Origin: a virus
Lineage: Duplodnaviria; Caudoviricetes
Reading direction: 5' to 3' (one strand)
DNA: 64,000 bases
Virus record (IMG/VR): IMGVR_UViG_3300006217_000025
Location: 1-64,000 of that record
Part shown: positions 30,527 to 64,000 of the stretch, piece after piece
Position numbering within the stretch: the stretch's first letter is position 1
How the letters are laid out: each line of letters opens with the position of its first letter
Made by a program: the position numbers and the translations under genes
Notes under the pieces: generated by a model
The model's database searches: none
Told to the model about the DNA's origin: nothing
The model's input: the letters and a program-made list of their open reading frames with translations, nothing else

Positions 30527-30558
30527 ATTTATTCTCCTAATTTGAAGTAAATATTTAA

Positions 30559-30635: not shown

Positions 30636-30640
30636 ATAAA

Positions 30641-50413: not shown

Positions 50414-50430
50414 ATTAATGAAAGGAATGT

Positions 50431-50820
50431 TTGATAATGGGTCAAATGACATTAACTGAATTTGTAGATTACTTTGATTTTGATTATTGTCTATATGACA
50501 GTGGAAAAGAATTATTGATTGGTTTAATTGATAATCAAGGGGCTAATTTAGGGGATATTGAGCAGGATAGATTTCTAAACAATAAAGAAGGTGTATTAGA
50601 TATTATTGATAGACTTGAAACATATTATGAAGATTATATCTTTAATGACTTAGAGATAGAATTAGAAGAAAATGGAATTGATACTTCAAATATGAGTTGG
50701 AAAGATATGTATAATGCAACAAAAAAATTAGATTGTGGTAGTGAAATCATGGATTACATCTTTGGAAATAAAGAAGTGATTTTAGATAGTCAAGATAAAG
50801 AAATTGTAAAAGAATATTGA
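50431..50820 (+). CDS. Hypothetical acidic protein
   Basis: ORF track. Confidence 0.7.
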   Translation: MIMGQMTLTEFVDYFDFDYCLYDSGKELLIGLIDNQGANLGDIEQDRFLNNKEGVLDIIDRLETYYEDYIFNDLEIELEENGIDTSNMSWKDMYNATKKLDCGSEIMDYIFGNKEVILDSQDKEIVKEY

Positions 50821-50836
50821 AAGTAGGAACCTTAAA

Positions 50837-51367
50837 ATGTTAAAAAATTATAAAAAATATCAATTAGAATGGATGATTAGCCATGGTTATTCATTAGATG
50901 ATTTAATGAATAAGATGGCTGATATAATCAATGAAGAACTGACTGTTGAGAGCAATGCTCATATAATCATAGATGAAGCATTTGAAATATTGCAAGATGA
51001 ACGAGGATTTGTAGGGTCTGAAATTTGGGCTTGTGAAGATGAATGGGAACAGAATGAAAACGATGATGACTTTGAAACAAATTTTGAAGTTGCAATTAAA
51101 ATGTTAGAAGATAATCCATATGATTTTAATAAGCATAAAGATTTAGTATGTTTATTTTGTAGTGAACAAGAAACCCCATTTTATGAATCTACATTATATG
51201 AGTTTCATTTCTTTGTTGAAAGATTTTGGTTAGAGAAATATGTATTAGAAAATTATAATGTTATAAATTTACAAGAATGGTTGGAGGAAATTTATACAAG
51301 TGATGAAAGTATATATATATTATTTGATGGTATCAAAGCTGGCGTGGTAGCTGGAATTTATAAATAA
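50837..51367 (+). CDS. Hypothetical acidic protein
   Basis: ORF track. Confidence 0.7.
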   Translation: MLKNYKKYQLEWMISHGYSLDDLMNKMADIINEELTVESNAHIIIDEAFEILQDERGFVGSEIWACEDEWEQNENDDDFETNFEVAIKMLEDNPYDFNKHKDLVCLFCSEQETPFYESTLYEFHFFVERFWLEKYVLENYNVINLQEWLEEIYTSDESIYILFDGIKAGVVAGIYK

Positions 51368-51386
51368 AGGAAAAGGGTAGATATGT

Positions 51387-51821
51387 ATGGAAAAAAAATT
51401 ATCTCTCACAGAATGGATTAAAAGATCATTTGGTGATGTAAGTCAAGAAAAATTAAAAAAACTAAAACAGTCTAAAGATGTCCTAAATACTTATATTAAG
51501 TATTTGTTTTTTTTAAAAGAAGAATTAATTAACAATTATCCTAAGAGTGCAGCGTATGTTGAGTCTCATTTAGTGCAACCGCATAGGCTTTGCAATAGAT
51601 GTGGAAATTACATATTAAAATCTGATTTAGAACAATATCCGTATCAATGTATGTATTGCGATGAAGATTTATTTAGCATTGAAACTCATTTAAGAACAAA
51701 TGATTATGGACAATTAGTTAATGATGAGATAAGTATTTTTGCTTATTGTGATTTGATTGAACAAGTGTCTGCTTTATTATGTTTAGATGATTGGAAAGGA
51801 GATAGTATAAATGAAAATTAA
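51387..51821 (+). CDS. Hypothetical protein with CxxC...CxxC
   Basis: CNRCG...YPYQCMYCDED. Confidence 0.7.
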   Translation: MEKKLSLTEWIKRSFGDVSQEKLKKLKQSKDVLNTYIKYLFFLKEELINNYPKSAAYVESHLVQPHRLCNRCGNYILKSDLEQYPYQCMYCDEDLFSIETHLRTNDYGQLVNDEISIFAYCDLIEQVSALLCLDDWKGDSINEN

Positions 51822-52050
51822 TGGACAAGTAGTAGTTGGTAAAGAATTTGCTTATGATGGCTGCCATAAAATTTATATTATTGAAGATGAAGAAGATAAG
51901 AAAGAGGCTATAGACGGATATACAATTTTGCCTATTAGTTTATTAAAGAAAACATATGAAAATAGTTGTTCATTAAGATTTATTCATAATTGGAAATTAA
52001 ATAAGACATATGTTTTACAATTTGAAGAAAATGTAACATTTGAAGATTAA
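51811..52050 (+). CDS. Hypothetical protein (AYDGCHKIY family)
   Basis: ORF track. Confidence 0.7.
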   Translation: MKINGQVVVGKEFAYDGCHKIYIIEDEEDKKEAIDGYTILPISLLKKTYENSCSLRFIHNWKLNKTYVLQFEENVTFED

Positions 52051-52062
52051 GGAGTGATGTGA

Positions 52063-52563
52063 ATGAAAGCAATTAATATCAAATGGAATGTTGACTGTGA
52101 AAAGGATTTGGAAACATTACCAATTGAAATTGAAATACCTAGGGCGATGACTGATGATGACGTAATATCTGATTATATTTCTGATGTAACAGGATTTTGT
52201 CATTGTGGATATGAGATAGTAGAAACAAATAAAGTTCAACAGTTATTAGATAGAATTGAAGAATTAGGTTGGAATGTAATAAATGAAGAAGATGACTGTT
52301 ATTCATTATCTCAATTTTCACCAGCAGAGCAAGATTTTAATGTTCATATTAGAGCGGAAAATTCTGATGAATTAATACAATCGATCTATGAAGCATATGA
52401 AAATTATGATGTTAGTTATGAAACATATTTATGGTTAGATAGTACAGGTCACGGTACAAATGGCGCCCCATATGAATTAGATGATGTGTTAAAAGATATG
52501 AAATGGTGTGAAAATGCTATTTTGGAATTGTACAAAACTTTGATTAATGAAGGGAAGAGATAG
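52063..52563 (+). CDS. Hypothetical protein
   Basis: AAGGAG RBS. Confidence 0.7.
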   Translation: MKAINIKWNVDCEKDLETLPIEIEIPRAMTDDDVISDYISDVTGFCHCGYEIVETNKVQQLLDRIEELGWNVINEEDDCYSLSQFSPAEQDFNVHIRAENSDELIQSIYEAYENYDVSYETYLWLDSTGHGTNGAPYELDDVLKDMKWCENAILELYKTLINEGKR

Positions 52564-52565
52564 GA

Positions 52566-52832
52566 ATGAAACAAATAACATATCTTGTTATAGTTGAAGA
52601 AGATAAAAGACAATCAATTTTAAATTCAAAAATGGCACTAATTAGAGATTGGAATATGGGTTGGTTCGAAGTCCCACAAATATTTATTGAAGAATTTAAA
52701 AAAAATTTTGGTATAACTGGATTTGAGTGCGGAGTATGTAGAGAAAATATAACAAAAGAAGAAATCAATTATTTTAACCAAATTAGATGGCATGAAGGAA
52801 GTAATATAATGAATGAATCCGATGAAGAATAA
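52566..52832 (+). CDS. Hypothetical protein
   Basis: ORF track. Confidence 0.65.
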   Translation: MKQITYLVIVEEDKRQSILNSKMALIRDWNMGWFEVPQIFIEEFKKNFGITGFECGVCRENITKEEINYFNQIRWHEGSNIMNESDEE

Positions 52833-52864
52833 TTTGAGGAAATGTTAGAAAATTTACTTCATAA

Positions 52865-53086
52865 AAGAATGTCAATAAATATTTATATGAAGGTGAGTTT
52901 TGCTAGGCTTCATCAGCTTTGGGAACTATAAATGTAGAATCTGATTTACAAGGACTCAATAAATTCATATTAGATGCGATCAGAGCTTGCGATACAGGTA
53001 AATTAAAGATTGGAGGTCTTGATAGTGTGAATGATTTACCTGATAGAACAATTCTTAGAGGAAAGGGGCGAAACGTAAAGAGATAA
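52865..53086 (+). pseudogene. Relic C-terminal fragment of a second reverse transcriptase gene
   Basis: Translates NKYLYEGEFC*ASSALGTINVESDLQGLNKFILDAIRACDTGKLKIGGLDSVNDLPDRTILRGKGRNV, colinear with the intact RT's MKYLYEGERAWAMSCLSCINVESDIAEMNKFIMDCIKACKTGKKRIGGLGVAYNLPDKTIIRGKGKHV. Confidence 0.9.
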
Positions 53087-53173
53087 GACAGGGCATAGTG
53101 CTTAAGTAATAATTTAAAAATGAGTCCAGTTGTGTTTGAAGTAACAGTAAGAAACATGAAAGGTGATTATATT

Positions 53174-53368
53174 ATGTTTACAAGAAAATTTAAAAATATT
53201 CATGATGATGAAGTATGGACTTTAGAAGAATTAAGACAATTAAGAAACGATCATAAAAAACAAGGAATTGATGTGTATGATAGTTTTGATAAATGGATGA
53301 GCGTTCAATTATGCATGGATTTTGTAGAAATTTATAATAATTCAATGGAACAAAATATGAAAGGATGA
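53174..53368 (+). CDS. Hypothetical protein
   Basis: AAGGTGA RBS, ATG at 53174. Confidence 0.65.
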   Translation: MFTRKFKNIHDDEVWTLEELRQLRNDHKKQGIDVYDSFDKWMSVQLCMDFVEIYNNSMEQNMKG

Positions 53369-53760
53369 TGATTATGAAAAGAGAATTGAAAGGTCTTGAT
53401 GATGTTGTAATAAGATTAAATGATGGACTTGAAAGAACTTCAGAAGAATTAGAGGTGTGCAAAAAATGATTGTTTAAATTTGGACTAGCTAATTACATGA
53501 GTTTAAAATAGTTAGATGATATGTGTTTGAAGATTCTGTTTGGGTGTTTAAGCAAATATTTGGATAAAAATTAGAAAAGATAAAAGGATGATATATATGC
53601 TAATTTTGATTCTAAGTGTGAAGTATTTGTGATTGATGAATGTGCGGCTTGGGACTAGGAAGAAGTGCAAGAAAAAAATAAAAAGGTTGAAGAGATTTTC
53701 AAAAAAAGAAAATTTAAAAGAATATATTAAAAGAAATATGAAAGGGTAAAGGTGAATAAA

Positions 53761-54174
53761 ATGGCGAATTATAATTGCGTAATTAGGACAAATTATTTTC
53801 ATGTGAAAAACAATACTATGTTCGAAGATTTTATGAAAACTGTTTATGGTGAAGATGAAGTTTTTATGTTCAAAAAAGGTGATATGTATGGATTTGGATG
53901 TTATGGGGAAATTATGGGTATAAGAAATCCTGAGGATGAAAACGAAGATGAATATGATTCTCCATATGATGCATTCATCGATGGGCTACAAAAATATGTA
54001 ACTGACAATGACGCAGTGATTATTATGGAATTTGGTAATGAAAAATTAAGACATATATCAGGTACCGTCGGTGTTATTACAAGTAAAAAAGTTAAATATA
54101 TGGACACAACAGATTTAGCAATGGATATTGCAAAAAAATTGTTGAACAATAAAAATTATGAAACTCAGTTTTAG
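53761..54174 (+). CDS. Conserved phage hypothetical protein (MANYNCVIRTNYFHVK)
   Basis: AAGGTGA RBS. Confidence 0.7.
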   Translation: MANYNCVIRTNYFHVKNNTMFEDFMKTVYGEDEVFMFKKGDMYGFGCYGEIMGIRNPEDENEDEYDSPYDAFIDGLQKYVTDNDAVIIMEFGNEKLRHISGTVGVITSKKVKYMDTTDLAMDIAKKLLNNKNYETQF

Positions 54175-54291
54175 ATGCTGTATATTGATTCTTAGAGGAA
54201 TTCTATAATTTATGTGATAGATATAGGGCCTAGATTGATGCAAACTATTAAAATTGAGACTCAAATAGCTTAATACTAGGATGGAGGCAAT

Positions 54292-54690
54292 ATGACATTA
54301 GATGAGTATGATAAAAAAATAAACTCTTATATAAAACAATTATCATCTCTATATGGAGATGAATGGGAAAAGCTTTATGAAGAAATTTCACAATTACAAA
54401 AAGATTATATGAAAAGTGTATTAATAGAATATGAGAAAGAAGTTAATTGTAAAGCAAAAGAATGTATTTATAATTTATTGCAATATGCAATTGAATGGAG
54501 TGAAAGTGGAAATTCAATTGTTAACGTTGATTCAAAAGAAATTGCTGATGAAGTTGAAGAGATTATATGGGAAGAAATTGGTGTTTATTTGTTAGACTGT
54601 GAAATATATAAAGAAGATAATCATTGGTCTATTGATTGTATGTTTGCTGGCAATTATGTTCCATATTGGGATGGCTGGAAAGACGAATAA
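54292..54690 (+). CDS. Hypothetical acidic protein
   Basis: GGAGG RBS. Confidence 0.7.
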   Translation: MTLDEYDKKINSYIKQLSSLYGDEWEKLYEEISQLQKDYMKSVLIEYEKEVNCKAKECIYNLLQYAIEWSESGNSIVNVDSKEIADEVEEIIWEEIGVYLLDCEIYKEDNHWSIDCMFAGNYVPYWDGWKDE

Positions 54691-54758
54691 TTATAAAAAG
54701 GATAATAGTAAAATGAAAGACTTAAAAGAATATAGTAATAGGAAGGTTAAGAAAGCAA

Positions 54759-55049
54759 ATGAAAGAGCTTAATATAAAAATGTATGAAGAAGAAATTGGT
54801 GAAGAGTGGATTGTAATGAATGTCCCCGGTAACGTTTCTGATAGTGAAATTGCATATGCTGTACACATGGCTAGTAAATATGCTTGGATTGACGAAGATG
54901 ATATTAAAGAAAATTATGATGAGTTGTTTGATGATATGCTTAAATTAAAACAAGAAAACAATGGACAGTATGTATTCATGTCATATTTAAAAATGACAAT
55001 TGGTGCAAAATTTAAAAAAGGAAAATATGATTTTGAAATTGAATGGTAG
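54759..55049 (+). CDS. Hypothetical protein
   Basis: ORF track. Confidence 0.65.
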   Translation: MKELNIKMYEEEIGEEWIVMNVPGNVSDSEIAYAVHMASKYAWIDEDDIKENYDELFDDMLKLKQENNGQYVFMSYLKMTIGAKFKKGKYDFEIEW

Positions 55050-55067
55050 AAAGGTTGGGTTAAGAAT

Positions 55068-55376
55068 ATGAAAAACTTAAACACTATGGATACATTTGGA
55101 AATGGTTTTAGAATTGAAAGAGATGGGAAAATATTTACATTAACAGAAGAAGAAATGAGCGATTTCAGATATTTAGATCAAGCGACTACAGGAAGGTGTT
55201 GCTTAGAATTCTATAGTTGTAACGATGATGAAAAAGAAATTATTGATAAAATGATGAAAGATGAAGAAGTCTGCTACAACATTGAAGATGATGTTTTATC
55301 TTTTATTTTTGAAGATTGTGAAAAAATTGAAAGGATTGTTATTAAAGATTATATTAAAAATTTTAATACGAATTAG
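55068..55376 (+). CDS. Hypothetical protein
   Basis: ORF track. Confidence 0.65.
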   Translation: MKNLNTMDTFGNGFRIERDGKIFTLTEEEMSDFRYLDQATTGRCCLEFYSCNDDEKEIIDKMMKDEEVCYNIEDDVLSFIFEDCEKIERIVIKDYIKNFNTN

Positions 55377-55391
55377 ACTACGCGTATTAAG

Positions 55392-55718
55392 ATGAATAAA
55401 AGAGGGGAAATTATGGATTTAGAAAAACTGAAAGATTGTTATAGGAGACTGGATAAAGCATTAGAATTTGATGGTGATTTTCAAGACATGTACGATAATT
55501 TATCGGGGATCGTTTTAGATGTTATGAATGATTTGTTAATTGTAATTAGGAGTGGAAATGATGAAGTTTCACCTAAATTAACTAGAAAAGAAAAAAAGAT
55601 GGTTAAAAAGGCTTTAGATTATTATGGGGATAGCCTTGCAGATACAATAGGATACAGTGCTGGTGAAAAATATTGGGATTTAATAAATAAATTTCAAAAT
55701 AAGAGAAAGGATGCATAA
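55392..55718 (+). CDS. Hypothetical protein
   Basis: ORF track; start may be a few codons downstream (GAGGGG RBS). Confidence 0.65.
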   Translation: MNKRGEIMDLEKLKDCYRRLDKALEFDGDFQDMYDNLSGIVLDVMNDLLIVIRSGNDEVSPKLTRKEKKMVKKALDYYGDSLADTIGYSAGEKYWDLINKFQNKRKDA

Positions 55719-56148
55719 AATGAGTTATAAAGTTGTGTGTACAGGCGATAGTGTTAAATGGTTTGATCACTATCAAGATAGTGTTAATTATGTCAAAAAA
55801 GAGGTAACAAAGGAAGTAATAGAACTATATGAAAATGATGAAATTGATAAATATGGGGTGCAAGATATTTTATTTGACTTATATACATATATATATCATA
55901 CACGAGGATTTATACATCCGAGTTTAAGAAATGAGTACGAGATCGTGGAATATAAAATAAAAGAAGCAAATAACTTAGAGTTTATTGGACAGATTATTGA
56001 TATTTTTGAAGACTTTTTAGAAAAGAGAGGAATTCATATTCACAATGTCGAACAAGACAAAGATGTCGCCCTTATTTATGGAGAAGATTATTTTGAATTA
56101 GAAGATAGCCTGAAAGATATGCTCAAAAATTGGGTGGTTATTGTATAG
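55711..56148 (+). CDS. Hypothetical protein
   Basis: ORF track. Confidence 0.65.
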   Translation: MHKMSYKVVCTGDSVKWFDHYQDSVNYVKKEVTKEVIELYENDEIDKYGVQDILFDLYTYIYHTRGFIHPSLRNEYEIVEYKIKEANNLEFIGQIIDIFEDFLEKRGIHIHNVEQDKDVALIYGEDYFELEDSLKDMLKNWVVIV

Positions 56149-56150
56149 AA

Positions 56151-57428
56151 GTGGATATTTTAATAAAAAAGATGTTTGAATATGAACGTTGGAAAGAGTT
56201 ACTTGAAATTGCTTCTGAAAAAGAGTTAGATAAGGATTTAATTATCAAATTTATGAAACCAGATGAACGAAAGAAATTGGCTTATATTATTGCTTCGGAT
56301 AGTTATACTATTGCTCCCCCACATATCGCTTTTATCCCAAAAGACGATGGCACTATGAGAGAAGTATATGTAAACGAAGATTTAGATAGGATAGTATTAA
56401 CTTTAATAAATAATGTTCTTTGCGAAATTTTTAAAAATAAAATTCATCCTAAATGTGTATCATATCAAAAAGGATTAGGGACACAAATGGTAGTTGAACA
56501 AATTTCAAGAGAAATTACTCAAATGGGTATTGATAATCCTCATATAGAGCGCTGTGGTTATAAAAGTGATTTTTCTAAGTATTTTGATAATGTGTCTTTA
56601 AAAGCTATTGACAGGGTATTTAATGAGTGTGAACGGGGACTAGGTTATGAGTATAATAAGCATCCCGTTTTTAATTTGTTGCGGAGATATTATCATCAGG
56701 ATTTATATTTTAATAAAGATGGGAAATTGGGCAATAGATATCAAGGGCTCAAACAAGGGTGTGCAGTGGCTAGTTTTCTAGCAAATGTCGTTTTGTATGA
56801 ATTAGATGAATTTATGTCAAACAAATATAGGATTTATTATAGATATAGTGATGATTTAGTTGCAATCGACAAAAATACTGATGATGTTATTGATGATATC
56901 AATCGAGTTATTTGTAAATATGGCGTTACATTGAATCCTAAAAAAGTAGAACCAATCTACAAAGATGAATGGTTTAAGTTTTTAGGATTCATGATCAAAG
57001 GTAGCCAAATCACTTTATCTAAAAAACGCATCAAGAATTTTGAAAAGGAAATTAGAAAAAGAAGCGTTGATAAACGAAAATGCTCTGAAAGTAAGGCTAG
57101 ATATCTAATCATGAAGTATTTATATGAAGGCGAACGGGCATGGGCAATGAGTTGTTTGAGTTGTATTAACGTTGAATCTGATATAGCTGAAATGAATAAG
57201 TTTATTATGGATTGCATTAAGGCATGTAAAACCGGAAAGAAAAGAATAGGGGGACTAGGAGTTGCTTATAATCTACCTGATAAAACAATTATAAGAGGCA
57301 AGGGGAAGCATGTTACCTCAAATAAGGTTAACAATGGGTATATTGAAAGATATTTGAGTGTACAGTGTCTTAGAAAAGATTTAAAGTACAATAGAGACTT
57401 ATTCGATATTGTACTTAAAGGACTATAA
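56151..57428 (+). CDS. Stand-alone phage reverse transcriptase (not DGR, intron or classical retron type)
   Basis: IPKDDGTMR (RT1), DRIV (RT2), YKSDFSKYFD (RT3), GLKQGCAVASFLAN (RT4), YYRYSDD (RT5), LNPKK (RT6), FKFLGF (RT7); likely GTG start at 56151 (track start 56130). Confidence 0.93.
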   Translation: MDILIKKMFEYERWKELLEIASEKELDKDLIIKFMKPDERKKLAYIIASDSYTIAPPHIAFIPKDDGTMREVYVNEDLDRIVLTLINNVLCEIFKNKIHPKCVSYQKGLGTQMVVEQISREITQMGIDNPHIERCGYKSDFSKYFDNVSLKAIDRVFNECERGLGYEYNKHPVFNLLRRYYHQDLYFNKDGKLGNRYQGLKQGCAVASFLANVVLYELDEFMSNKYRIYYRYSDDLVAIDKNTDDVIDDINRVICKYGVTLNPKKVEPIYKDEWFKFLGFMIKGSQITLSKKRIKNFEKEIRKRSVDKRKCSESKARYLIMKYLYEGERAWAMSCLSCINVESDIAEMNKFIMDCIKACKTGKKRIGGLGVAYNLPDKTIIRGKGKHVTSNKVNNGYIERYLSVQCLRKDLKYNRDLFDIVLKGL

Positions 57429-57454
57429 GATAAAGAAAAAGTTGAGGTGAAACT

Positions 57455-57703
57455 ATGAAGTTATATTTAATTTTAGTTGGTGGTGATTATATTAGGGATT
57501 CTCAAATTTATACAGGGGAAAACATTGATGGGGACATTTATGATGATGATTCAACATGGAAAGATTTTTGTCCTACTCATGTTGTTGGCGTTGTATATGC
57601 TTCTACATATGAGAATTCAATTAAAAGATTTTTAGAATTATGCAGTGACTATGAAGAGTTTATGCTATCTGCATACGAAATTTCAAATGAGGTAATCTTA
57701 TGA
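57455..57703 (+). CDS. Small acidic hypothetical protein in the RT cassette
   Basis: GAGGTGA RBS; ATGA overlap with the next gene. Confidence 0.7.
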   Translation: MKLYLILVGGDYIRDSQIYTGENIDGDIYDDDSTWKDFCPTHVVGVVYASTYENSIKRFLELCSDYEEFMLSAYEISNEVIL

Positions 57704-58134
57704 CAATTTATGGACGATTGATTGAGGCAGGCCAATGTGGCTTGCCTTTTTATGTGGATTTTAAAAAGAAGAACTTGTTTGTTAACAAAAAATGTTTAAT
57801 TAAACATGGGGTGGTTTTGGAAGATGAAGATATCATGGATGACAAAGACTTGATACAAATTTATGAGAATCCACTTGATTATGTCAAAATTCTATATGAA
57901 AACTTCAAAAATTCTTGGGGAGATAACAGAAGTAAATACTTTATTGCAAAGGACAGTAAAGAAATGTCATTTGAAGCGATTATAGAGGCTTGTAGTGGAA
58001 GTTTAGCTAAAGCTAGACTTGAGGGTTTTGTTTTATTAACTATTCTCACAGGAGAATTTAAGTGGGAATGGGGAAATAAATGGTTCTACCAAGATGATGG
58101 GGGACTTATTTTACTAAAAGAATGGTTTTATTAA
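57700..58134 (+). CDS. Putative RT-associated accessory protein
   Basis: FYVDFKKKNL...LYENFKNS...ARLEGFVL...WGNKWFYQ...LILLKEW; position downstream of the RT. Confidence 0.65.
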   Translation: MTIYGRLIEAGQCGLPFYVDFKKKNLFVNKKCLIKHGVVLEDEDIMDDKDLIQIYENPLDYVKILYENFKNSWGDNRSKYFIAKDSKEMSFEAIIEACSGSLAKARLEGFVLLTILTGEFKWEWGNKWFYQDDGGLILLKEWFY

Positions 58135-58153
58135 AAAAGAGGAGGAAAATATT

Positions 58154-58852
58154 ATGAAAAAGAAAACGGCAGAAAGAATCGTGGAGTTGGTAAAGAATGG
58201 TGTAGATGTCAAAAAATTCAATGCATTAACAGATGAATTGACAATCGGTTTATCCACATCTAGAAATTTATTAAAGGTAAGGGAAGTAGAGATTGATGAG
58301 AGAAAAATTATTACTCTCGATACACCAAATATTGATATCGCAATTAAGACATTGAAAGCATTTAGTTATCAAGGCTATGATGCAGATACAGGAAAACATG
58401 AATTAGGATTTAATAGCTGGCTAAAGAATGAGGTATCATTTGCTAGTTTTATTTTTATGTTTCATAAACTGCATAAATGTGAAAGTCCCAATATTTCCTA
58501 TTTAGCAGAGCAATGCTTAATGAATTTTAAACAAACTTATACAGTGGAGGCATTAAGAAGAATAAAAAAAATCGGGGTAGTAAAATTAGGTAAAATTAAT
58601 CATGCTAATAAGCAAGATGTTGAAACAAGAATTTATGGGATGTTTGAAAGAATATATGAAGGTTATTATACAAGTGGTTTCTTTGAATATAAAAATGAAG
58701 CATGGAGAGATATTTGTAAATTATATTATGGATATTATACATATACATTTTTAAAGGAATATTTTCCGGAAAAACTAAATGGATTAGAAATTGATAGTGA
58801 AGAAGTAGAAGTAGCATATTTCTATATTCAACAATTAGAAAAAATTATCTAA
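58154..58852 (+). CDS. Putative RT-associated accessory protein (232 aa)
   Basis: GAGGAGG RBS; lies between the RT cassette genes and the structured RNA. Confidence 0.65.
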   Translation: MKKKTAERIVELVKNGVDVKKFNALTDELTIGLSTSRNLLKVREVEIDERKIITLDTPNIDIAIKTLKAFSYQGYDADTGKHELGFNSWLKNEVSFASFIFMFHKLHKCESPNISYLAEQCLMNFKQTYTVEALRRIKKIGVVKLGKINHANKQDVETRIYGMFERIYEGYYTSGFFEYKNEAWRDICKLYYGYYTYTFLKEYFPEKLNGLEIDSEEVEVAYFYIQQLEKII

Positions 58853-58876
58853 GTTTTTTTTGCTTTGTGTTGGGCT

Positions 58877-59058
58877 TGAATATAAGGTTTTACAAATGAT
58901 AAGAGGCTCCGCCTCTTATCACACCCTTCTGGATATAAGGAGGATTGTGACCAGAAGACAGCAGGACGACAGGAGTCGCAGCTGCCTCGGGCGGTTCGGA
59001 TTCTTACAGAATCCTCACAATATCTTAAAGAAAAACACCAGGTAAAACATTATATTTA
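58877..59058 (+). ncRNA. Structured ncRNA closed by a terminal inverted repeat; candidate RT template
   Basis: 58877-58893 pairs with 59042-59058 (one mismatch, one G-U); perfect 11-bp hairpin TGATAAGAGGC-TCC-GCCTCTTATCA (58897-58921); further stems at 58927/58951 and 58998-59014; GC content far above the flanks. Confidence 0.75.
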
Positions 59059-59082
59059 TTAAAATTTGAAAGGAGCAAGATT

Positions 59083-59730
59083 ATGGTTAATTCGGTTTCA
59101 GAATTTCGGAAGAGAATAGGGGTACATATTACCACAAGGCATAATGGTAAAATGGAAGGGATGCACTCTTTGAGTACAAGTTGTTTAAAAAACAATTTCT
59201 GTAAAGAACGCTCAAAAAACAAAGCCTCTATTTGCTCACATTGTTACGCTAGTAGGCTATTGAAAATGTATAAAAATACAGAATATTGTTTAAGCAAGAA
59301 CACCGACATTCTAACAAAAAAAGTGCTAATCGAAGAAGAATTACCAATATTAAATGTTTTATACTTTAGATTAGAAGCATTTGGAGATTTAATCAATACA
59401 ATGCAAGTATTGAATTATTTTAACCTATGCAATAAGAATCCTCAAACAAGATTTGCAATTTGGACTAAAAATCCACAGTTAATTGAACAAACTATTCATC
59501 AAGGACACCGAAAACCTCAAAATTTAAATGTGGTTTTGAGTAGTCCTTTTTTAAATAAAGAGATAAAGAATAAATATGATTTTGTTGATGTTATTTTTAC
59601 AGTGTATGACAAAGAAACAATTGACAAAGAGAAAATTTTAATCAATTGTGGTGACAAGAAATGTTTAGAATGTCTGAAATGTTATAAAAAGCATGAAGAC
59701 TTAATTTATATAAATGAAAAAATTAAATAA
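59083..59730 (+). CDS. Gp88-like Cys-cluster protein
   Basis: C-x4-C...CSHCYA, YFRLEAFGDL, FAIWTKNP, NCG..KCLECLKC. Confidence 0.7.
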   Translation: MVNSVSEFRKRIGVHITTRHNGKMEGMHSLSTSCLKNNFCKERSKNKASICSHCYASRLLKMYKNTEYCLSKNTDILTKKVLIEEELPILNVLYFRLEAFGDLINTMQVLNYFNLCNKNPQTRFAIWTKNPQLIEQTIHQGHRKPQNLNVVLSSPFLNKEIKNKYDFVDVIFTVYDKETIDKEKILINCGDKKCLECLKCYKKHEDLIYINEKIK

Positions 59731-59743
59731 AGGAGGGCTAAAT

Positions 59744-60265
59744 ATGAAAAAAACACTTGAACAATTAATTTCAGAGGTTAAACAAGATATGTCAATTGCT
59801 TTGTTGCCATTTGATGATGCAGTTCCTATCGTATTGAACCCTAGGTTAACCCGAGTTTTAGGAAGAGCAAAACATAGAGGAGAAAAAAATATTGTAGTTG
59901 AAATTGCGAAGAATGTCTATGAATTAGCCGATGAACAAACAATTAAAAATGTTATTTGCCATGAATTATTACATACAGCTTTTCCTTTAGACGGGCATTT
60001 AGGACAGTGGAAATTTTATGCGAATAAAGCAAATATCTTAATGCCAAAATATAATATTACGAGATGTAATACAGATAAAGAATTATATAAAAGAAGGCAC
60101 AAATGGTATAAGGTAAAGTGCTTAAAATGTGGAGAAACATGGGAAACACACAACAAGACCTGTGTCAAGTATCCAGAAAGATACTATCATGTAACATGTG
60201 GTGGGAATTTAACAATATTAGATGAGAAGGGAAAACAAAATGACAAACGAGGAAAGAGTAAATAA
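59744..60265 (+). CDS. SprT-like zinc metalloprotease
   Basis: RLTRVLG...VICHELLH...GHLGQWK, C-terminal CxxC...H-x2-C; AAGGAGG RBS. Confidence 0.8.
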   Translation: MKKTLEQLISEVKQDMSIALLPFDDAVPIVLNPRLTRVLGRAKHRGEKNIVVEIAKNVYELADEQTIKNVICHELLHTAFPLDGHLGQWKFYANKANILMPKYNITRCNTDKELYKRRHKWYKVKCLKCGETWETHNKTCVKYPERYYHVTCGGNLTILDEKGKQNDKRGKSK

Positions 60266-60914
60266 ATTTAGAAACGAAAAAATCGCAGTAAACTGCAAAA
60301 CAGAGGAAGAAGCAAAATCATTTATAGAGTGGTGCTATGAAAATGGAATTGAATGGGGGATTCCAGAGTTAGATGAAACACATTCAACTTGCTTTCGTTA
60401 TTATAGGAATGAAACATGTTATGCCTTTGGTTTTGATGGAGACATACACTTGGGATATGGCTCTAAACATTTTCACGAAGAAGAAGGCTATGAAGTCATA
60501 ACATACAAAGACTTCATGAAAGAAAAGAAAATGACTAATTTAGAATATTATGTTTCAAAAGGTTTAATCAACGAAGGTGCTATGTTATGTGTTGGCGCTC
60601 ATATTTGCAAATACGATGGTAAGTGTCATGATAAAGAGTGTTATAAATGCGAATTTAATAATGATGTAAATTTATGTGTTAAAACATTGCTTGAAGAATA
60701 CAAAAAGCCTATCAAATTAACAAGGTTTGAGTTTGATTACCTAGATGTTTTGAGAGAATACAATAATCCAAACGATGAATTTAGTATATATTTCTGTGAT
60801 TGCGTAAAAAAAAGCAAAGGATATTTTAAAGGCATTACAGATACATCTATGACAATTCAAGAAATCTTAGATAATTGTGAAATTGTGGTTGATGATTATG
60901 ATTTTGGAGAGTAA
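60240..60914 (+). CDS. Hypothetical two-module phage protein
   Basis: IAVNCKTEEEAK module plus a C-terminal Cys-rich module. Confidence 0.7.
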   Translation: MTNEERVNKFRNEKIAVNCKTEEEAKSFIEWCYENGIEWGIPELDETHSTCFRYYRNETCYAFGFDGDIHLGYGSKHFHEEEGYEVITYKDFMKEKKMTNLEYYVSKGLINEGAMLCVGAHICKYDGKCHDKECYKCEFNNDVNLCVKTLLEEYKKPIKLTRFEFDYLDVLREYNNPNDEFSIYFCDCVKKSKGYFKGITDTSMTIQEILDNCEIVVDDYDFGE

Positions 60915-60927
60915 AGGAAAATGAATA

Positions 60928-61266
60928 ATGAAAATGGAAAATAAAATTTATAGCCAATGGGCATTTACTGAAAACGAAAGAGAAAAAGCAAGAATTAATA
61001 GAGAAATTTATAATGAATTAAAAACAAAATATAGAGTTTATAGACACGATTTAAAACAAGATTTAAAAGATAAAGTAGATGTAAACTTTGATGAATATGA
61101 TGTAGTTATCGGTAGAAGTGCTTGCTATCTTCATGGAGAATATACAGTATATAAAAATGCACCAAAATTAAGTGATGATGAGTTAGCATTGTTATGTGAT
61201 AGTGGAAATTTATGTTTTGGGTATAAAAAAAGTGGTGTTAATGAATTTTATGTATATGAAGATTAG
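60928..61266 (+). CDS. Hypothetical protein (LALLCDSGNLCFG family)
   Basis: ORF track. Confidence 0.7.
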   Translation: MKMENKIYSQWAFTENEREKARINREIYNELKTKYRVYRHDLKQDLKDKVDVNFDEYDVVIGRSACYLHGEYTVYKNAPKLSDDELALLCDSGNLCFGYKKSGVNEFYVYED

Positions 61267-61280
61267 AGGAGTGATGAAGA

Positions 61281-61505
61281 ATGACAATTTTATTAGCAAA
61301 TGGTGAATTTGCATATATCACTGATATTTGTAATTGTGAGGATTGCAAAGCAAGAGGGGAAGTAGAATTTATAGTTGTTGATGAAAATCATGAACTCTTA
61401 GATTACCTTAAATATCATGAGTTGAAAGATAAATCAATTGTTAGTCATTACAATCCAAAAGATTTATGTGAGTTGTTTCATAGAAAGTTGATTGGAAAGG
61501 TGTGA
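61281..61505 (+). CDS. Hypothetical protein (CNCEDCKARG)
   Basis: AGAGGAG RBS. Confidence 0.7.
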   Translation: MTILLANGEFAYITDICNCEDCKARGEVEFIVVDENHELLDYLKYHELKDKSIVSHYNPKDLCELFHRKLIGKV

Positions 61506-61512
61506 GTGAAGA

Positions 61513-61794
61513 GTGAATAGTGCAGAATTTAAACATTTCAAACTTCATGCAGACAGTACGCTAAAAAGCATGACAAAAGATGAATTGGTTAGTTATATTC
61601 ATATGTTATATCACAATTGGGGTGTTGTTGATGAGAGATTGTGTAATGGTATTGATTATAGTCGCAAACTTGATAAAGCACTAGATAAAGCGTGTGAAGA
61701 ATTAGTAAGGGCTTATCCATGCGGTGTCAATAGGTGTAATACTAATTGTCATAAAGAAAGTTGGGAAGAGTGGTTGATGAAAAATGACTATTGA
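61513..61794 (+). CDS. Hypothetical protein
   Basis: ORF track. Confidence 0.65.
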   Translation: MNSAEFKHFKLHADSTLKSMTKDELVSYIHMLYHNWGVVDERLCNGIDYSRKLDKALDKACEELVRAYPCGVNRCNTNCHKESWEEWLMKNDY

Positions 61795-62710
61795 TGTGCT
61801 TGATAACGAGCTAATTCTGTTTGATCGATTAAATGTCATTAGAGATGTTGTTGAAAAATATAGTGAAGACAAATTCTATATCTCTTTCAGCGGGGGCAAG
61901 GACAGTACGGTACTTCATTATTTATTTGATGAAGCATTGCCAAACAATACAATACCTAGAGTATATTGTGATACGGGTATTGAGTACAACGATATAAAAG
62001 AATTTGTTTATGAACTGTCTAAAAATGATGATAGGTTCATCATTTTGAAGCCTAGTCAGAATGTGAAAGCCATGCTTGAAAAACATGGTTATCCATTCAA
62101 AAGTAAAGAACATAGCCATATTTTAGCGGTCTACCAAAATAGTGGTAAAACCAAAACGGTGGATAAATATTTATCAGGAATAAGGATAAAGAACGGAAAA
62201 GAAACTGAAACCTCGTTTAAGTGTCCTAAAATTCTTGCTTATCAATTTAACCAGGATTTCAAAATTAAAGTTAGCGATAAGTGTTGTAAGAGATTTAAAA
62301 AAGAGCCATTTAAAAGCTATGAAAAGCAGAGTGGCAGAAACATCTATATAACAGGAATGCGGAAATCAGAGGGCGGATATAGAAACAACATAAATTGCAT
62401 CGTTTATGACAATGACAAGCAAGTTAAAAAATTCCACCCTTTATCAAACGTTAATGACGAATGGGAAGATTGGTACATTCAAAAAAGAGGCATACAACTT
62501 TGCAAGCTGTATTATCCACCGTTCAATTTTAAAAGAACGGGGTGCAAGGGCTGTCCGTTTTCATTAAACCTACAAGAACAATTAGAAGTAATGGCAAGGT
62601 TATTACCGAATGAAAGAAAACAATGCGAAATGATATGGAAACCGATTTATACGGAGTACAGAAGACTTGGCTATAGACTTGCTGAAAATGAGCAAATAAA
62701 AATTTTTTAG
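61784..62710 (+). CDS. PAPS reductase-family (adenine nucleotide alpha hydrolase) protein
   Basis: ISFSGGKDSTVL PP-loop, CDTGIEY, SDKCC, GMRKSEG, RTGCKGCPF. Confidence 0.85.
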   Translation: MTIDVLDNELILFDRLNVIRDVVEKYSEDKFYISFSGGKDSTVLHYLFDEALPNNTIPRVYCDTGIEYNDIKEFVYELSKNDDRFIILKPSQNVKAMLEKHGYPFKSKEHSHILAVYQNSGKTKTVDKYLSGIRIKNGKETETSFKCPKILAYQFNQDFKIKVSDKCCKRFKKEPFKSYEKQSGRNIYITGMRKSEGGYRNNINCIVYDNDKQVKKFHPLSNVNDEWEDWYIQKRGIQLCKLYYPPFNFKRTGCKGCPFSLNLQEQLEVMARLLPNERKQCEMIWKPIYTEYRRLGYRLAENEQIKIF

Positions 62711-62723
62711 AAAGGAACTAGAG

Positions 62724-63353
62724 ATGAAAATACACAATAAAAAATTGATTCAGCCTTATTTTGATGATGTTTGGAACGGAAATAAAACATTTGAGATAAG
62801 GAAAAACGACTGTGATTATCAAATTGGGGATTTTCTAATTCTTCATGAATTGACAAATGAAACAATACAAATAGAAGGTAAAAAATTATACAGAATTAAG
62901 GCTTTGATTGATTTTGGTGATGTAAAAGCTGGAGATTTAGGCGGTTTTATAGAAAAAGAAAGTAATTTAAGCCATCTTGGTAGCGCTTGGATATATGATG
63001 ATGCTAAGGTGTATGGCAACGCTGAGGTGTATGGTAACGCTTGGATATATGATGACGCTGAGGTGTGTGGTAACGCTAGGGTGTGTGATGACGCTATGGT
63101 GTGTGGTAACGCTATGGTGTGTGATGATGGTGATTATGCATGTGTTAAAGGTTTTGGAACGGAATATAGAAACACCACGTTTTATAAACAGAAAAATGGA
63201 AGTGTTGGTGTGAATTGTGGGTGTTTCACTGGCACATTAGGGGAGTTTAGAAATCAGGTTAAAAAAACAAGAAAAGGGAAAATTGAAAAAGAATATTTGA
63301 TGATAGCTGATTTAATAGAATATCATTTTGCAGAAGAAGGAGAGGGATTATAA
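62724..63353 (+). CDS. Chimeric protein: DUF3850/ASCH N-terminus fused to a hexapeptide-repeat phage protein
   Basis: YFDDVWNGNKTFEIRKNDCDYQIGD then ELTNETIQ...LYRIKAL...GDLGGFIEKESNL and A-x-V-x-G-N repeats. Confidence 0.75.
   Translation: MKIHNKKLIQPYFDDVWNGNKTFEIRKNDCDYQIGDFLILHELTNETIQIEGKKLYRIKALIDFGDVKAGDLGGFIEKESNLSHLGSAWIYDDAKVYGNAEVYGNAWIYDDAEVCGNARVCDDAMVCGNAMVCDDGDYACVKGFGTEYRNTTFYKQKNGSVGVNCGCFTGTLGEFRNQVKKTRKGKIEKEYLMIADLIEYHFAEEGEGL
62985..63128 (+). repeat. Eight 18-nt coding tandem repeats (hexapeptides)
   Basis: Units like GCTGAGGTGTATGGTAAC / GCTATGGTGTGTGATGAT. Confidence 0.9.
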
Positions 63354-63634
63354 TAACAAAGGAAGAGTTAGAACAATACGTGCCGTTGAAGAAATGGAGA
63401 ACAGAGGCTATTAGAAATAATAGAAAAGAGGAAATTGCTATATTGGAAGAAAGAATGAAAGCCATAGAAAAGGCGATTTCAACAACATCATCTAATGTAG
63501 ATGTTTATAGAGCGCTACATTACAGGTACATATTAGGGATGGAGTTAAAGGCGATTGCAAAAAAAACAAACTTCTCTATTGCGACAGTTAGCAGAAATTT
63601 GAAAAAAGGTTTAAAGATGATAAACCATGCGTAA
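63350..63634 (+). CDS. ArpU/sigma-region-4-like HTH regulator; probable ATA start overlapping the upstream TAA
   Basis: GAAGGAGAGG RBS then ATA ATA ACA AAG GAA GAG TTA (xITKEELEQY); C-terminal HTH YRYILGMELKAIAKKTNFSIATVSR. Confidence 0.65.
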   Translation: MITKEELEQYVPLKKWRTEAIRNNRKEEIAILEERMKAIEKAISTTSSNVDVYRALHYRYILGMELKAIAKKTNFSIATVSRNLKKGLKMINHA

Positions 63635-63720
63635 CGTTTGCATGGTATCATATAGGTGCAGTCATGGAATTGCACCTCTTTCTTTTTAATTTTATAAGGT
63701 GGATAAAATCCACCGAATAA

Positions 63721-63796
63721 GGCAGGGTGGAGCAGAAGGAAGCTTATCAGTCTTATTAGCTGAGGGTCGCAGGTTCAAGTCCTGCCCCTGCAACCA
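63721..63796 (+). tRNA. Initiator (fMet)-type tRNA body with UAU anticodon
   Basis: G1.A72 mismatch, G2-C71, C3-G70, A11-U24, A73, T arm GCAGG-UUCAAGU-CCUGC as in Bacillota tRNA-fMet; anticodon loop CU-UAU-UA. Confidence 0.75.
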
Positions 63797-63847
63797 TTTA
63801 ATTTACCATGCTTCATAGCATGGATTTTTTTGAAAGGAATTAAAGAA

Positions 63848-63979
63848 ATGATAGAAAAAATGTTAGCGATCAAAAGGGAAATATATACAACGGATTCATG
63901 GAAGCGTAGAAATGATTTACAGAAGCATTTAGATAGCTTAGAAAAAGAATGGTTTAAAAACAAGAAGGTGATAAAATAG
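63848..63979 (+). CDS. Small hypothetical protein (43 aa)
   Basis: GAAAGGA RBS, ATG; MIEKMLAIKREI...SWKRRNDLQKHL. Confidence 0.6.
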   Translation: MIEKMLAIKREIYTTDSWKRRNDLQKHLDSLEKEWFKNKKVIK

Positions 63980-64000
63980 CTAGACCAAAAAAAGAAATTG
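63976..64000 (+). CDS. 5' end of a gene starting at ATA (MARPKKEI...), truncated by the window edge
   Basis: AAGAAGGTGA RBS; ATA overlaps the upstream TAG (ATAG); ARPKKEI is a typical phage protein N-terminus. Confidence 0.5.

What the first reader, a model, noticed from the sequence alone, without database searches (positions are those of the whole stretch)
58877..59058. ncRNA with a1/a2-like terminal inverted repeat, perfect 11-bp hairpin and possible pseudoknot
Seen: TGAATATAAGGTTTTAC (58877-93) pairs with GTAAAACATTATATTTA (59042-58). Inside are TGATAAGAGGC-TCC-GCCTCTTATCA (11 bp, 3-nt loop), TTCTGG/CCAGAA, CGAC-AGGA-GTCG, CTGCC-TCG-GGCGG and GGATTCT-TAC-AGAATCC. The loop sequence ATTGTGA (58944-50) is complementary to TCACAAT (59015-21), so a pseudoknot or conformational switch is possible. 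There is no U-tract after the hairpins, so this is not a simple terminator. Inference: msr/msd-like template-primer RNA of the adjacent RT, with the 11-bp hairpin as a candidate ssDNA stem (for example a decoy binding site).
Basis: partly seen in the sequence, partly recalled or inferred. Interest (0 to 1): 0.85.

Follow-up and report, generated by a model that had tools for sequence, protein, structure and literature searches.

The report
Divergent UG27 reverse-transcriptase template RNA
This folded, GC-rich RNA is most likely the template RNA of an already published phage reverse-transcriptase system (UG27), here in an unusual single-unit form whose middle part differs sharply between almost identical mouse-gut phages.

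Summary
The hairpins and the 17-nt closing stem are real. The fold is far better than shuffles (z -4.8), and this is the most GC-rich 100 nt of the 64-kb window.

The reverse transcriptase (RT) 1.4 kb upstream is a UG27-class RT (PADLOC E 2e-156). It comes with the family's small helper gene and a very divergent large helper gene. UG27 RNAs were predicted in 2022 (PMC9226505). A September 2026 preprint (10.64898/2026.09.22.753630) showed that they template 50-100-nt DNA hairpins.

The element sits where relatives carry RNA arrays and keeps the family scaffold:
- a small 5' hairpin;
- a two-part basal stem;
- UUAAAGAAA;
- a 5-bp pseudoknot at the family's position.

It fails the published unit definition in three ways. 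It has no AUC-N7-UANAG motif. Its central domain has three to five hairpins instead of one. My family covariance model gives only 12.1 bits, which is background level. I therefore call it a new variant of a known kind, not a retron.

New here: a 69-nt cassette differs by 23% from a phage whose flanking genes differ by 0.7%. In another relative a 41-nt hairpin replaces it.

This scan has already reported UG27 arrays in at least 48 other genomes, but not this form.

The parts
56130..57428 (+). UG27-class reverse transcriptase (432 aa by the TTG start; 425 aa from 56151), with the YSDD active site
   Evidence: PADLOC RT_UG27 E 2.2e-156, covering 3-418 of 420 model positions. Pfam RVT_1 E 1.6e-18. 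YSDD is seen in the translation. 2178 homologues at E <= 1e-30; the nearest outside its own 90% cluster is 63% identical.
57455..57703 (+). 82-aa ORF of no known family between the RT and the small helper gene; possibly a lineage-specific extra gene
   Evidence: No Pfam, PHROG, NCBIfam or PADLOC match. Kept as an open frame in all near-identical contigs. The stretch is not structured as RNA (z +0.48), so it is not a hidden RNA unit.
57700..58134 (+). UG27 small accessory protein (sORF, cluster 346)
   Evidence: PADLOC RTas346 E 1.4e-21. A profile of six relatives' sORFs gives E 5e-29.
58154..58852 (+). Very divergent, shortened UG27 large accessory protein (bORF, cluster 337): 232 aa against 279-316 aa in relatives
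   Evidence: A profile of six relatives' bORFs gives E 4.6e-9. hhalign gives probability 83%, E 8.7e-6, over the N-terminal ~110 residues only. Single-sequence searches find no relative outside its own cluster. No PADLOC match.
58862..58875 (+). Small 5' basal hairpin (stem GCUU/GGGC with two G-U pairs, loop UGUGUU). Its loop holds the 5' half of the pseudoknot (GUGUU, 58867-58871).
   Evidence: Read from the sequence. RNAfold gives -1.5 kcal/mol. Model R1 aligns it to the family's basal hairpin, one base before the basal stem.
58877..58893 (+). 5' arm of the two-part basal stem (9 bp, a mismatch, 7 bp). UUUA at 58889-58892 is the only candidate for the family's UUYA stop motif.
   Evidence: Aligned to the family's basal stem by R1. 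Invariant in all six sequence variants.
58897..58921 (+). Conserved hairpin HP1 (perfect 11 bp, 3-nt loop), the first part of the predicted template
   Evidence: Its stem is identical in all variants; the only change is in the loop (58908 T to A).
58924..58992 (+). Hypervariable cassette (three small hairpins in this phage), the middle of the predicted template
   Evidence: 23% different from L086, whose five flanking genes differ by 0.73% (1.4% at third codon positions); Fisher p 5e-13. Replaced by an unrelated 41-nt single hairpin in L094-L102. An assembly of one sample breaks exactly here.
58998..59014 (+). Conserved hairpin HP5 (7 bp, 3-nt loop), the last part of the predicted template
   Evidence: Its stem is identical in all variants; the only change is in the loop (59006 A to T).
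59019..59033 (+). 3' single-stranded motif AAUAUC-UUAAAGAAA, the predicted start region of reverse transcription (AUC at 59022-59024)
   Evidence: UUAAAGAAA matches the family consensus at all nine positions. In the family, AU is invariant seven bases upstream of UANAG; here AUC lies one base upstream and the -10 position reads CAC.
59034..59038 (+). 3' half of the pseudoknot (AACAC), pairing with 58867-58871
   Evidence: 5 Watson-Crick pairs, -4.7 kcal/mol. Same position as in the family, 2-4 nt after UANAG. In the family, own-partner pairing beats foreign-partner pairing (p 3.5e-13).
59042..59058 (+). 3' arm of the basal stem
   Evidence: Invariant in all variants.

Best explanation
The element, best delimited as 58862-59058 on the + strand, is the non-coding RNA partner of a UG27 reverse-transcriptase (RT) system. 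The system comprises the RT (56130-57428), the small helper (57700-58134) and a divergent large helper (58154-58852).

By analogy with five UG27 systems tested in the 2026 preprint, the three proteins would bind the scaffold. The scaffold consists of:
- the basal stem;
- the 5' hairpin, joined by a pseudoknot to the bases after UUAAAG;
- the single-stranded 3' motif.

DNA synthesis would start near the AUC at 59022-59024. It would copy hairpin HP5, the variable cassette and hairpin HP1 leftwards, and stop near the UUUA at 58889-58892. The product would be a free minus-strand ssDNA of about 125-135 nt in this phage and about 100 nt in the phages with the short cassette. That ssDNA folds into several hairpins.

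Shown here:
- the class of the proteins;
- the position of the element;
- the scaffold geometry;
- the conservation of the scaffold;
- the hypervariability of the cassette.

Inferred:
- transcription of the element;
- binding by the proteins;
- the start and stop points;
- the existence of the cDNA.

What the cDNA does is unknown for the whole family.
For: **System and position**
- The RT is UG27 (E 2.2e-156) and the small helper is RTas346 (E 1.4e-21).
- The large helper is recognised by a profile of relatives (E 4.6e-9; hhalign 83%).
- Relatives with 57-63% identical RTs carry 3-7 RNA units per locus in two places: the RT-sORF gap and after the bORF. The second is where this element lies.

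**The family structure is real**
- My model R1 finds 99 units in the 38 relatives' loci searched, all on the RT strand.
- Covariation score is 0.519, against 0.157 in shuffles and at most 0.145 when the partners are slid.
- In 125 units, basal-stem and pseudoknot halves pair better with their own partners than with foreign ones (p 5e-54 and 3.5e-13).

**The element fits that scaffold**
- R1 aligns it end to end (58848-59058). The 5' hairpin, the two-part basal stem and UUAAAGAAA fall on the matching model positions.
- Given a basal stem, random flanks show the three further features in the family's geometry in only 3.5e-4 to 8e-4 of trials. The features are UANAG 9-13 nt before the 3' arm, a hairpin 0-2 nt before the 5' arm, and at least 5 bp between that hairpin's loop and the spacer.

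**It is the only candidate in this phage**
- It is the most GC-rich and a strongly structured stretch of the window.
- No other candidate unit turns up in the 78-kb record.

**Variation pattern**
- All four scaffold substitutions among near-identical phages fall in unpaired bases (p 0.027).
- The predicted payload varies freely.

**Published support**
- RT-, sORF- and bORF-dependent cDNAs from the central part of each unit were shown for five UG27 systems (10.64898/2026.09.22.753630).
Against: - The family model gives the element only 12.1 bits. That is E 0.1 in a 321-nt search. In the search of the whole window it is not among the 25 best matches, the best of which scores 20.9 bits. Random AT-rich DNA nearby reaches 11 bits.
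- A sequence-only profile does not find it.
- The published AUC-N7-UANAG motif is absent from the element.
- The central domain is 123 nt with three to five hairpins. The family has a single hairpin domain of 66-95 nt.
- UUUA lies inside the basal stem, not in an internal loop.
- The pseudoknot has only 5 bp and sits at the weak end of the family (94th percentile).
- The scaffold is invariant among the available relatives, so there is no covariation within this lineage.
- The geometry test was designed after I had seen the element.
- There is no evidence of transcription. The RNA-library contigs that cover the element may derive from DNA.
Confidence: 0.75

Rival explanations
1. A structured RNA that belongs to the UG27 operon but is not a template. 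It could be a processing, stability or regulatory element, or the 5' leader of the GP88-like gene that starts at 59083.
For: - The family model does not recognise it above background.
- The exact start motif is missing.
- The element lies 24 nt upstream of the next gene's ribosome-binding site.
Against: - A leader or regulatory element would not be expected to keep the family's hairpin-pseudoknot-UANAG geometry.
- It would also not be expected to tolerate wholesale replacement of its middle while its ends stay identical.
- Every relative carries template units at this position.
Confidence: 0.12
2. A retron-type msr/msd RNA: a1/a2 repeats, priming from a branching G, and a 2'-5' linked RNA-DNA product.
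For: Terminal inverted repeats close a multi-hairpin RNA near an RT.
Against: - Retron RT models score E 1e-12 and 2.5e-9, against 2e-156 for UG27.
- The RNA lies 1.4 kb downstream of the RT, behind three ORFs, not directly upstream of it.
- No Rfam family matches.
- For UG27 systems the preprint describes short ssDNA products and needs two helper proteins.
Confidence: 0.03
3. A recombination or attachment site whose inverted repeats bind a recombinase. The variable middle would be a product of exchange.
For: - One metagenome contig (L103) follows the phage sequence up to about 59066. It then continues into unrelated DNA that carries a methyltransferase gene and a glycoside hydrolase family 42 gene.
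- Contigs from one sample break inside the cassette.
Against: - The 78-kb record has no tyrosine integrase, although it is estimated to be only 50% complete.
- The L103 junction lies outside the element and may be an assembly chimera.
- The pairing includes G-U pairs, which only work in RNA.
- This reading does not explain the family scaffold.
Confidence: 0.04
4. A small protein gene. Candidates are the 61-aa frame at 58860-59045, or a 32-aa frame that starts at GTG 58947 behind the AAGGAGG at 58937-58943.
For: An open frame exists. A Shine-Dalgarno-like AGGAG is present in all three cassette types.
Against: - The cassette lengths are 69, 68 and 41 nt, so the 61-aa frame is broken in the variants.
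- The GTG becomes ACG in the L086 type, and no start codon is placed correctly in the L094 type.
- All three scaffold substitutions inside the frame change the amino acid.
Confidence: 0.02
5. A template repeat of a diversity-generating retroelement. Its variable middle would reflect adenine-directed mutagenesis.
For: An RT lies nearby and one short stretch is hypervariable.
Against: - There is no second copy of the element or its cassette in the 78-kb record.
- No long direct repeat lies near the RT.
- Substitutions affect all four bases.
- The RT is not of the DGR class.
Confidence: 0.01

Closest known systems
UG27 reverse-transcriptase systems with ncRNA arrays (class 2 UG/Abi RTs of gut phages; PMC9226505, 2022; bioRxiv 10.64898/2026.09.22.753630, 2026)
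   Same: - Same RT class, with the small helper and a recognisable large helper.
- The RNA is on the RT strand, in the spacer after the large helper gene.
- The same scaffold is present: a small 5' hairpin joined by a pseudoknot to the bases after UANAG, a two-part basal stem, UUAAAGAAA, and a GC-rich structured central domain.
- Found in phages of the gut.
   Different: - One unit instead of an array.
- The central domain is 123 nt with five hairpins (three in a relative), instead of one hairpin domain of 66-95 nt.
- AUC lies 1 nt rather than 7 nt before UUAAAG.
- UUUA is buried in the basal stem.
- The large helper is shortened to 232 aa and alignable only at its N-terminus.
- An extra 82-aa ORF is present.
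- A family covariance model does not score the element above background.
- The payload is hypervariable between near-identical phages.
Retron msr/msd RNAs
   Same: A structured RNA closed by terminal inverted repeats, part of which is copied into a small multicopy ssDNA by a dedicated RT.
   Different: - The RT belongs to a different class.
- The RNA lies downstream, behind helper genes.
- Two helper proteins are needed in the UG27 family.
- No branching-G context has been shown.
- No retron RNA family matches.
DRT2, DRT3 and DRT9 defence reverse transcriptases with ncRNA templates (UG2, UG3+UG8, UG28)
   Same: Related UG/Abi RTs that use a neighbouring structured ncRNA as template.
   Different: - Those are bacterial defence systems, and the 2026 preprint cites long, concatemeric cDNA products for other class 2 UG RTs.
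- UG27 is phage-borne, is not enriched in defence islands (PMC9226505) and makes short hairpin cDNAs.
- The PADLOC scores of this RT for those classes are far lower: Drt9 E 3.6e-22, Drt2 E 2.4e-13.

Membership tests
UG27 RT-associated ncRNA unit | Encoded beside a UG27-class reverse transcriptase | tested here: met
   PADLOC RT_UG27 E 2.2e-156, full-length match. The RT lies 1.4 kb upstream on the same strand in a tightly packed operon.
UG27 RT-associated ncRNA unit | Small accessory protein (cluster 346) in the locus | tested here: met
   PADLOC RTas346 E 1.4e-21. Profile of six relatives E 5e-29.
UG27 RT-associated ncRNA unit | Large accessory protein (cluster 337) in the locus | tested here: inconclusive
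   Profile of six relatives E 4.6e-9. hhalign 83%, E 8.7e-6, N-terminal ~110 residues only. No PADLOC match. No relative found by single-sequence searches of 5.8 and 1.8 billion proteins.
UG27 RT-associated ncRNA unit | Lies on the RT strand in a spacer that flanks the three genes | tested here: met
   It lies in the spacer after the large helper gene. The relatives L082, L085, L090, L091 and L092 carry 1-5 units at that position.
UG27 RT-associated ncRNA unit | Basal stem that closes the unit | tested here: met
   16 pairs in two parts. R1 aligns them to the family's two-part basal stem.
UG27 RT-associated ncRNA unit | Small hairpin at the base of the unit whose loop forms a pseudoknot with the bases after UANAG | tested here: met
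   - Hairpin 58862-58875. Loop GUGUU pairs with AACAC at 59034-38 (5 bp, -4.7 kcal/mol).
- The placement is as in the model.
- The joint geometry is rare by chance, 3.5e-4 to 8e-4.
- It is weak, and it is invariant in this lineage, so covariation cannot be used here.
UG27 RT-associated ncRNA unit | AUC-N7-UANAG motif on the 3' side of the central domain | tested here: not met
   No match in the element. UAAAG is present at 59026-30, but the -10 triplet is CAC and the nearest AUC is 1 nt upstream. AU at that position is invariant in 99 family units.
UG27 RT-associated ncRNA unit | UUYA in the asymmetric internal loop on the 5' side of the central stem | tested here: inconclusive
   UUUA at 58889-92 has the right order and distance, but it is paired within the inner basal helix. 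The 5' loop is only AAA.
UG27 RT-associated ncRNA unit | One long central hairpin (unit about 135-167 nt) | tested here: not met
   123 nt lie between UUUA and CAC, against a family 5th-95th percentile range of 66-95 nt. There are five separate hairpins here and three in the L094 type. The unit is 197 nt long.
UG27 RT-associated ncRNA unit | Tandem array of units | tested here: not met
   No second unit in the window or in the 78-kb record. In the relative L004 I found only one unit, of the canonical kind, in the spacers I inspected, so this feature may not be strict.
UG27 RT-associated ncRNA unit | Significant match to a family covariance model | tested here: not met
   My model R1 (28 seed units) gives 12.1 bits. 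That is E 0.1 in 321 nt and below 25 chance matches window-wide. The two published models were not available.
UG27 RT-associated ncRNA unit | RT- and helper-dependent short ssDNA copied from the central domain | not testable with these tools
   Needs expression and strand-specific ssDNA sequencing. The public runs are held only as contigs.
Retron msr/msd | Retron-class RT with the ncRNA directly upstream of it | tested here: not met
   Retron models score E 1.1e-12 (NCBIfam) and 2.5e-9 (PADLOC), far below UG27. The RNA lies downstream of three further ORFs.
Diversity-generating retroelement template repeat | A template/variable repeat pair that differs at adenines | tested here: not met
   Only one copy in the 78-kb record. 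No long direct repeat within 50000-64000 apart from a hexapeptide-type coding repeat. Variant substitutions affect all four bases.

The most novel reading that the evidence does not exclude
The 69-nt cassette between two conserved hairpins is an exchangeable payload that is evolving far faster than neutral. The sequence or shape of the resulting DNA hairpins would decide what the system acts on. Phage lineages would swap or mutate the cassette under diversifying selection, possibly helped by error-prone cDNA recombining back into its own template locus. That would make this single-unit UG27 variant a natural handle on the open question of what UG27 cDNAs do.
Probability: 0.25. Interest if true: 0.8.

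Novelty: new variant of a known kind. Interest (0 to 1): 0.42.

Why it matters
UG27 systems are common in gut phages. Their biochemical output is known (short DNA hairpins), but their biological role is not.

This locus is a minimal natural version: one RNA unit with a conserved scaffold. At least three payload types occur in phages that are otherwise 96-99% identical, and they come from eight mouse-gut studies.

- If the payload alone differs, comparing these phages, or swapping their cassettes, could show what the cDNA recognises.
- The locus also shows that family covariance models miss some UG27 RNAs.
- It further shows that the published start motif is not universal.

Tried and rejected
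- **Rfam.** No family matches at gathering score or at E <= 10 in 58700-59200.
- **Near relatives in phage collections.** The large-helper protein found nothing in IMG/VR, and the operon DNA found nothing in the GenBank phage collection.
- **Sequence-only profile.** nhmmer with a profile of 28 family units did not find the element.
- **Automatic consensus structure.** RNAalifold on the MAFFT alignment of units gave none. I projected single-sequence folds onto the alignment columns instead.
- **Loose descriptor scan.** A scan for UANAG + UUYA + stem + pseudoknot gave dozens of chance hits in this AT-rich window and was dropped.
- **Duplex-energy comparison.** The basal stem is AU-rich and pairs about as well with foreign AT-rich arms, so this did not discriminate for the window.
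- **The 11-bp hairpin elsewhere.** It does not occur in 185,579 species genomes. It occurs once in JGI metagenomes, inside a bacterial miaA-like gene. I take that as chance.
- **Public sequencing runs.** They are held only as contigs. They show presence and variants but neither transcription nor cDNA. Two metatranscriptome runs carry a 96% relative on multi-kb contigs, which may derive from DNA.
- **RNA units near the RT relic.** None at 52500-54400.
- **Shared 6-mers.** I compared the cassette with family central hairpins: 5 hits against roughly 2 expected (my own estimate). This is not convincing, and the family sample is not independent.
- **Hypervariable payloads across the family.** The picture is mixed. 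Central hairpins diverge 2-3 times faster than the scaffold between L082 and L085, but they are less variable than the RT gene in the L060 group.

Full report
**1.

The finding lies in the 230-nt spacer 58853-59082. This spacer separates a 232-aa ORF (58154-58852) from a GP88-like gene (59083-59730).

- The ends 58877-58893 and 59042-59058 form 16 pairs with one mismatch.
- The 11-bp hairpin is perfect.

The + strand folds at -69.2 kcal/mol, against -49.4 +/- 4.1 for shuffles (z -4.8). The stretch is the most GC-rich 100 nt of the 64-kb window (57% against 30.4%), ahead of all nine tRNA genes. No Rfam family matches, and there is no terminator-like site at the element.

**2. The surrounding genes are a UG27 system**

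- The 432-aa protein at 56130-57428 is a UG27-class reverse transcriptase (RT): PADLOC E 2.2e-156, full length. Retron, DRT and group II models score far lower.
- The 144-aa ORF matches the UG27-associated small protein (E 1.4e-21; E 5e-29 against a profile of relatives).
- The 232-aa ORF is an orphan in single-sequence searches. A profile of six relatives' large helper proteins recognises it (E 4.6e-9). hhalign gives 83% probability, but only over the N-terminal ~110 residues.
- An 82-aa ORF of no family sits between the RT and the small helper. It is not structured as RNA (z +0.48).

**3. What is known about UG27**

Mestre et al. 2022 (PMC9226505) found UG27 RTs mostly in gut phages, together with two unknown genes and a predicted ncRNA.

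A preprint of September 2026 (10.64898/2026.09.22.753630) reports the following:
- The RNA occurs as arrays of about 150-nt units.
- Each unit has a basal hairpin, a pseudoknot, and short motifs that bracket a central hairpin.
- In five systems expressed in E. coli, the RT and both helpers are needed to copy each central hairpin into a 50-100-nt ssDNA.
- Synthesis starts at the AUC of AUC-N7-UANAG and stops after UUYA.
- The biological role is unknown.

This scan has itself reported UG27 arrays 91 times, in at least 48 other genomes.

**4. Relatives**

The RT has 2178 homologues at E <= 1e-30. Apart from its own 90% cluster, the nearest is 63% identical. I fetched 80 IMG/VR loci and seven loci of the 57-63% clade.

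In that clade the published motif, with AUU or AUC, marks 3-7 units per locus. The units lie in the RT-sORF gap and after the bORF.

Single-sequence folds of 28 units all show the same plan:
- a small 5' hairpin;
- a two-part basal stem;
- an unpaired AUUYAA;
- one long hairpin;
- a single-stranded AUAU(S)-N7-UANAG-AAAUG...

I built a covariance model, R1, from these units.
- It found 99 units in the 38 relatives' loci searched, including clades that were not in the seed. All are on the RT strand.
- The structure is supported by covariation: score 0.519, against 0.157 in shuffles and at most 0.145 with slid partners.
- In 125 units, basal-stem halves and pseudoknot halves pair far better with their own partners than with foreign ones (p 5e-54 and 3.5e-13).

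**5. Does the window's element belong?**

*For*
- It lies where relatives carry units, and it is the only structured, GC-rich stretch in the operon.
- R1 aligns it end to end (58848-59058). The hairpin 58862-58875 falls on the model's basal hairpin, the 9+7-bp stem falls on the two-part basal stem, and UUAAAGAAA falls on the model's UUAAAGAAA.
- The loop GUGUU (58867-71) can pair with AACAC (59034-38), exactly where the family's pseudoknot sits.
- Given a basal stem, random flanks reproduce this geometry in only 3.5e-4 to 8e-4 of trials. I designed this test after seeing the element.

*Against*
- The R1 score is 12.1 bits. That gives E 0.1 in the 321-nt search, and it is below 25 chance matches in the whole window. 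Neighbouring AT-rich DNA reaches 11 bits.
- The AUC-N7-UANAG pattern is absent. The AUC lies one base, not seven, before UUAAAG. The AU at the family position is invariant in 99 units.
- The central domain is 123 nt with five hairpins. The family has one hairpin domain of 66-95 nt.
- UUUA is buried in the basal stem.
- There is a single unit. In the relative L004 I found only one unit, of the canonical kind, in the spacers I inspected.

I conclude that it works like, and descends from, a UG27 unit. It does not satisfy the published definition of one.

**6. Near-identical phages show a hypervariable cassette**

Contigs from eight mouse-gut studies carry the operon. They give six distinct sequences of the spacer.

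The scaffold is essentially fixed. This covers the 5' hairpin, the basal stem, hairpin HP1 (58897-58921), hairpin HP5 (58998-59014) and the 3' motif. Its four substitutions (58908, 59006, 59019, 59041) all lie in unpaired bases (p 0.027).

The 69 nt between HP1 and HP5 (58924-58992) behave differently:
- They differ by 23% between the window and L086. The five flanking genes differ by 0.73%, or 1.4% at third codon positions (Fisher p 5e-13).
- The small hairpins are not kept by compensatory change. In L086 the partner of the 5' arm has moved to another place.
- In L094-L102, whose flanks differ by 4.1%, an unrelated 41-nt single hairpin replaces the cassette.
- Contigs of one sample break exactly inside the cassette, with loose ends of the other type. 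This suggests that types coexist in that sample.
- Substitutions hit all four bases, and no second copy exists in the 78-kb record. This is therefore not a DGR.

The rate is well above the third-position rate, so relaxed constraint alone does not explain it. Exchange by recombination, or diversifying selection, is needed.

Across the family the picture is mixed. Between L082 and L085, central hairpins diverge 2-3 times faster than the scaffold. In the L060 group they are more conserved than the RT gene.

**7.

ATTGTGA:TCACAAT is complementary in this phage, and it extends to a 14-of-18 pairing. It is destroyed in the L086, L087, L106 and L094 types. In L088 both sides of one pair changed, to G/G. 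It is a property of one cassette type, not of the element.

**8. Rivals**

- Retron, DGR and small-ORF readings fail on tested features.
- A leader or regulatory role cannot be excluded. It does not explain the family geometry.
- One contig (L103) leaves the phage sequence just after the element and runs into bacterial-type genes. The 78-kb record has no integrase, and the junction lies outside the element. I treat this as an unexplained side observation.

**9. Verdict**

This is a real, strongly structured RNA element. It is most likely the template RNA of a known phage RT system, in a divergent single-unit form that family models miss. The retron reading is not supported.

The system is known, so novelty is limited. 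The conserved scaffold with an exchangeable, fast-changing payload is the part worth following up.

Noticed in passing
window 52871-53158 (+): Relic of a second UG27-type RT. The stretch translates to about 100 aa that are 44% identical to residues 327-432 of the intact RT, with three in-frame stops. It looks closer to the consensus of the 57-63% clade than to the phage's own RT, which suggests that an older UG27 module was replaced. No RNA unit remains near it.
   Followed up: partly
L103:1030-3323 (JGI contig Ga0081460_1019938), junction at about window 59066: One metagenome contig is identical to the window through the whole element. About 8 nt after the basal stem it switches to unrelated DNA with a methyltransferase gene and a glycoside hydrolase family 42 gene on the other strand. 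It could be a prophage-host junction, a mosaic break point or an assembly chimera.
   Followed up: partly
L089:266-290 (-) (JGI contig Ga0209542_10173968): The 25-nt sequence of hairpin HP1 occurs identically inside a bacterial miaA-like (IPP transferase) gene, extended there to a longer hairpin. It does not occur in any of the 185,579 species genomes searched. Probably chance.
   Followed up: partly
window 57455-57703 (+): An 82-aa ORF with no family in any library sits where relatives have an RNA unit, between the RT and the small helper. It is kept open in all near-identical contigs. It may be an extra protein component of this variant system.
   Followed up: partly
window 58937-58943 and the matching place in L086 and L094: All three otherwise unrelated cassette types contain AGGAG (AAGGAGG, GAGGAGG, GAAGGAG). 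Several 6-mers enriched in family central hairpins (CTGAAG, TGAAGG, AGCTGG, GCAGGA) recur in the cassettes.
   Followed up: partly
L004:6285-6495: A relative with a 47% identical RT and a short (243-aa) large helper has one canonical unit between the RT and the small helper. My model R1 missed it with default filters at E <= 1, so counts of units from such models are lower bounds.
   Followed up: no
window 62984-63145 (+): Six 18-nt tandem repeats inside the gene at 62724-63353, which has a DUF3850/ASCH N-terminus and a beta-solenoid or hexapeptide-like repeat region.
   Followed up: no
window 28902-30716 (-) and 63721-63796 (+): Eight tRNA genes are clustered on the minus strand, and a lone tRNA with anticodon UAU lies on the plus strand. 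Other notes of this scan read the lone tRNA as an initiator-like tRNA.
   Followed up: no
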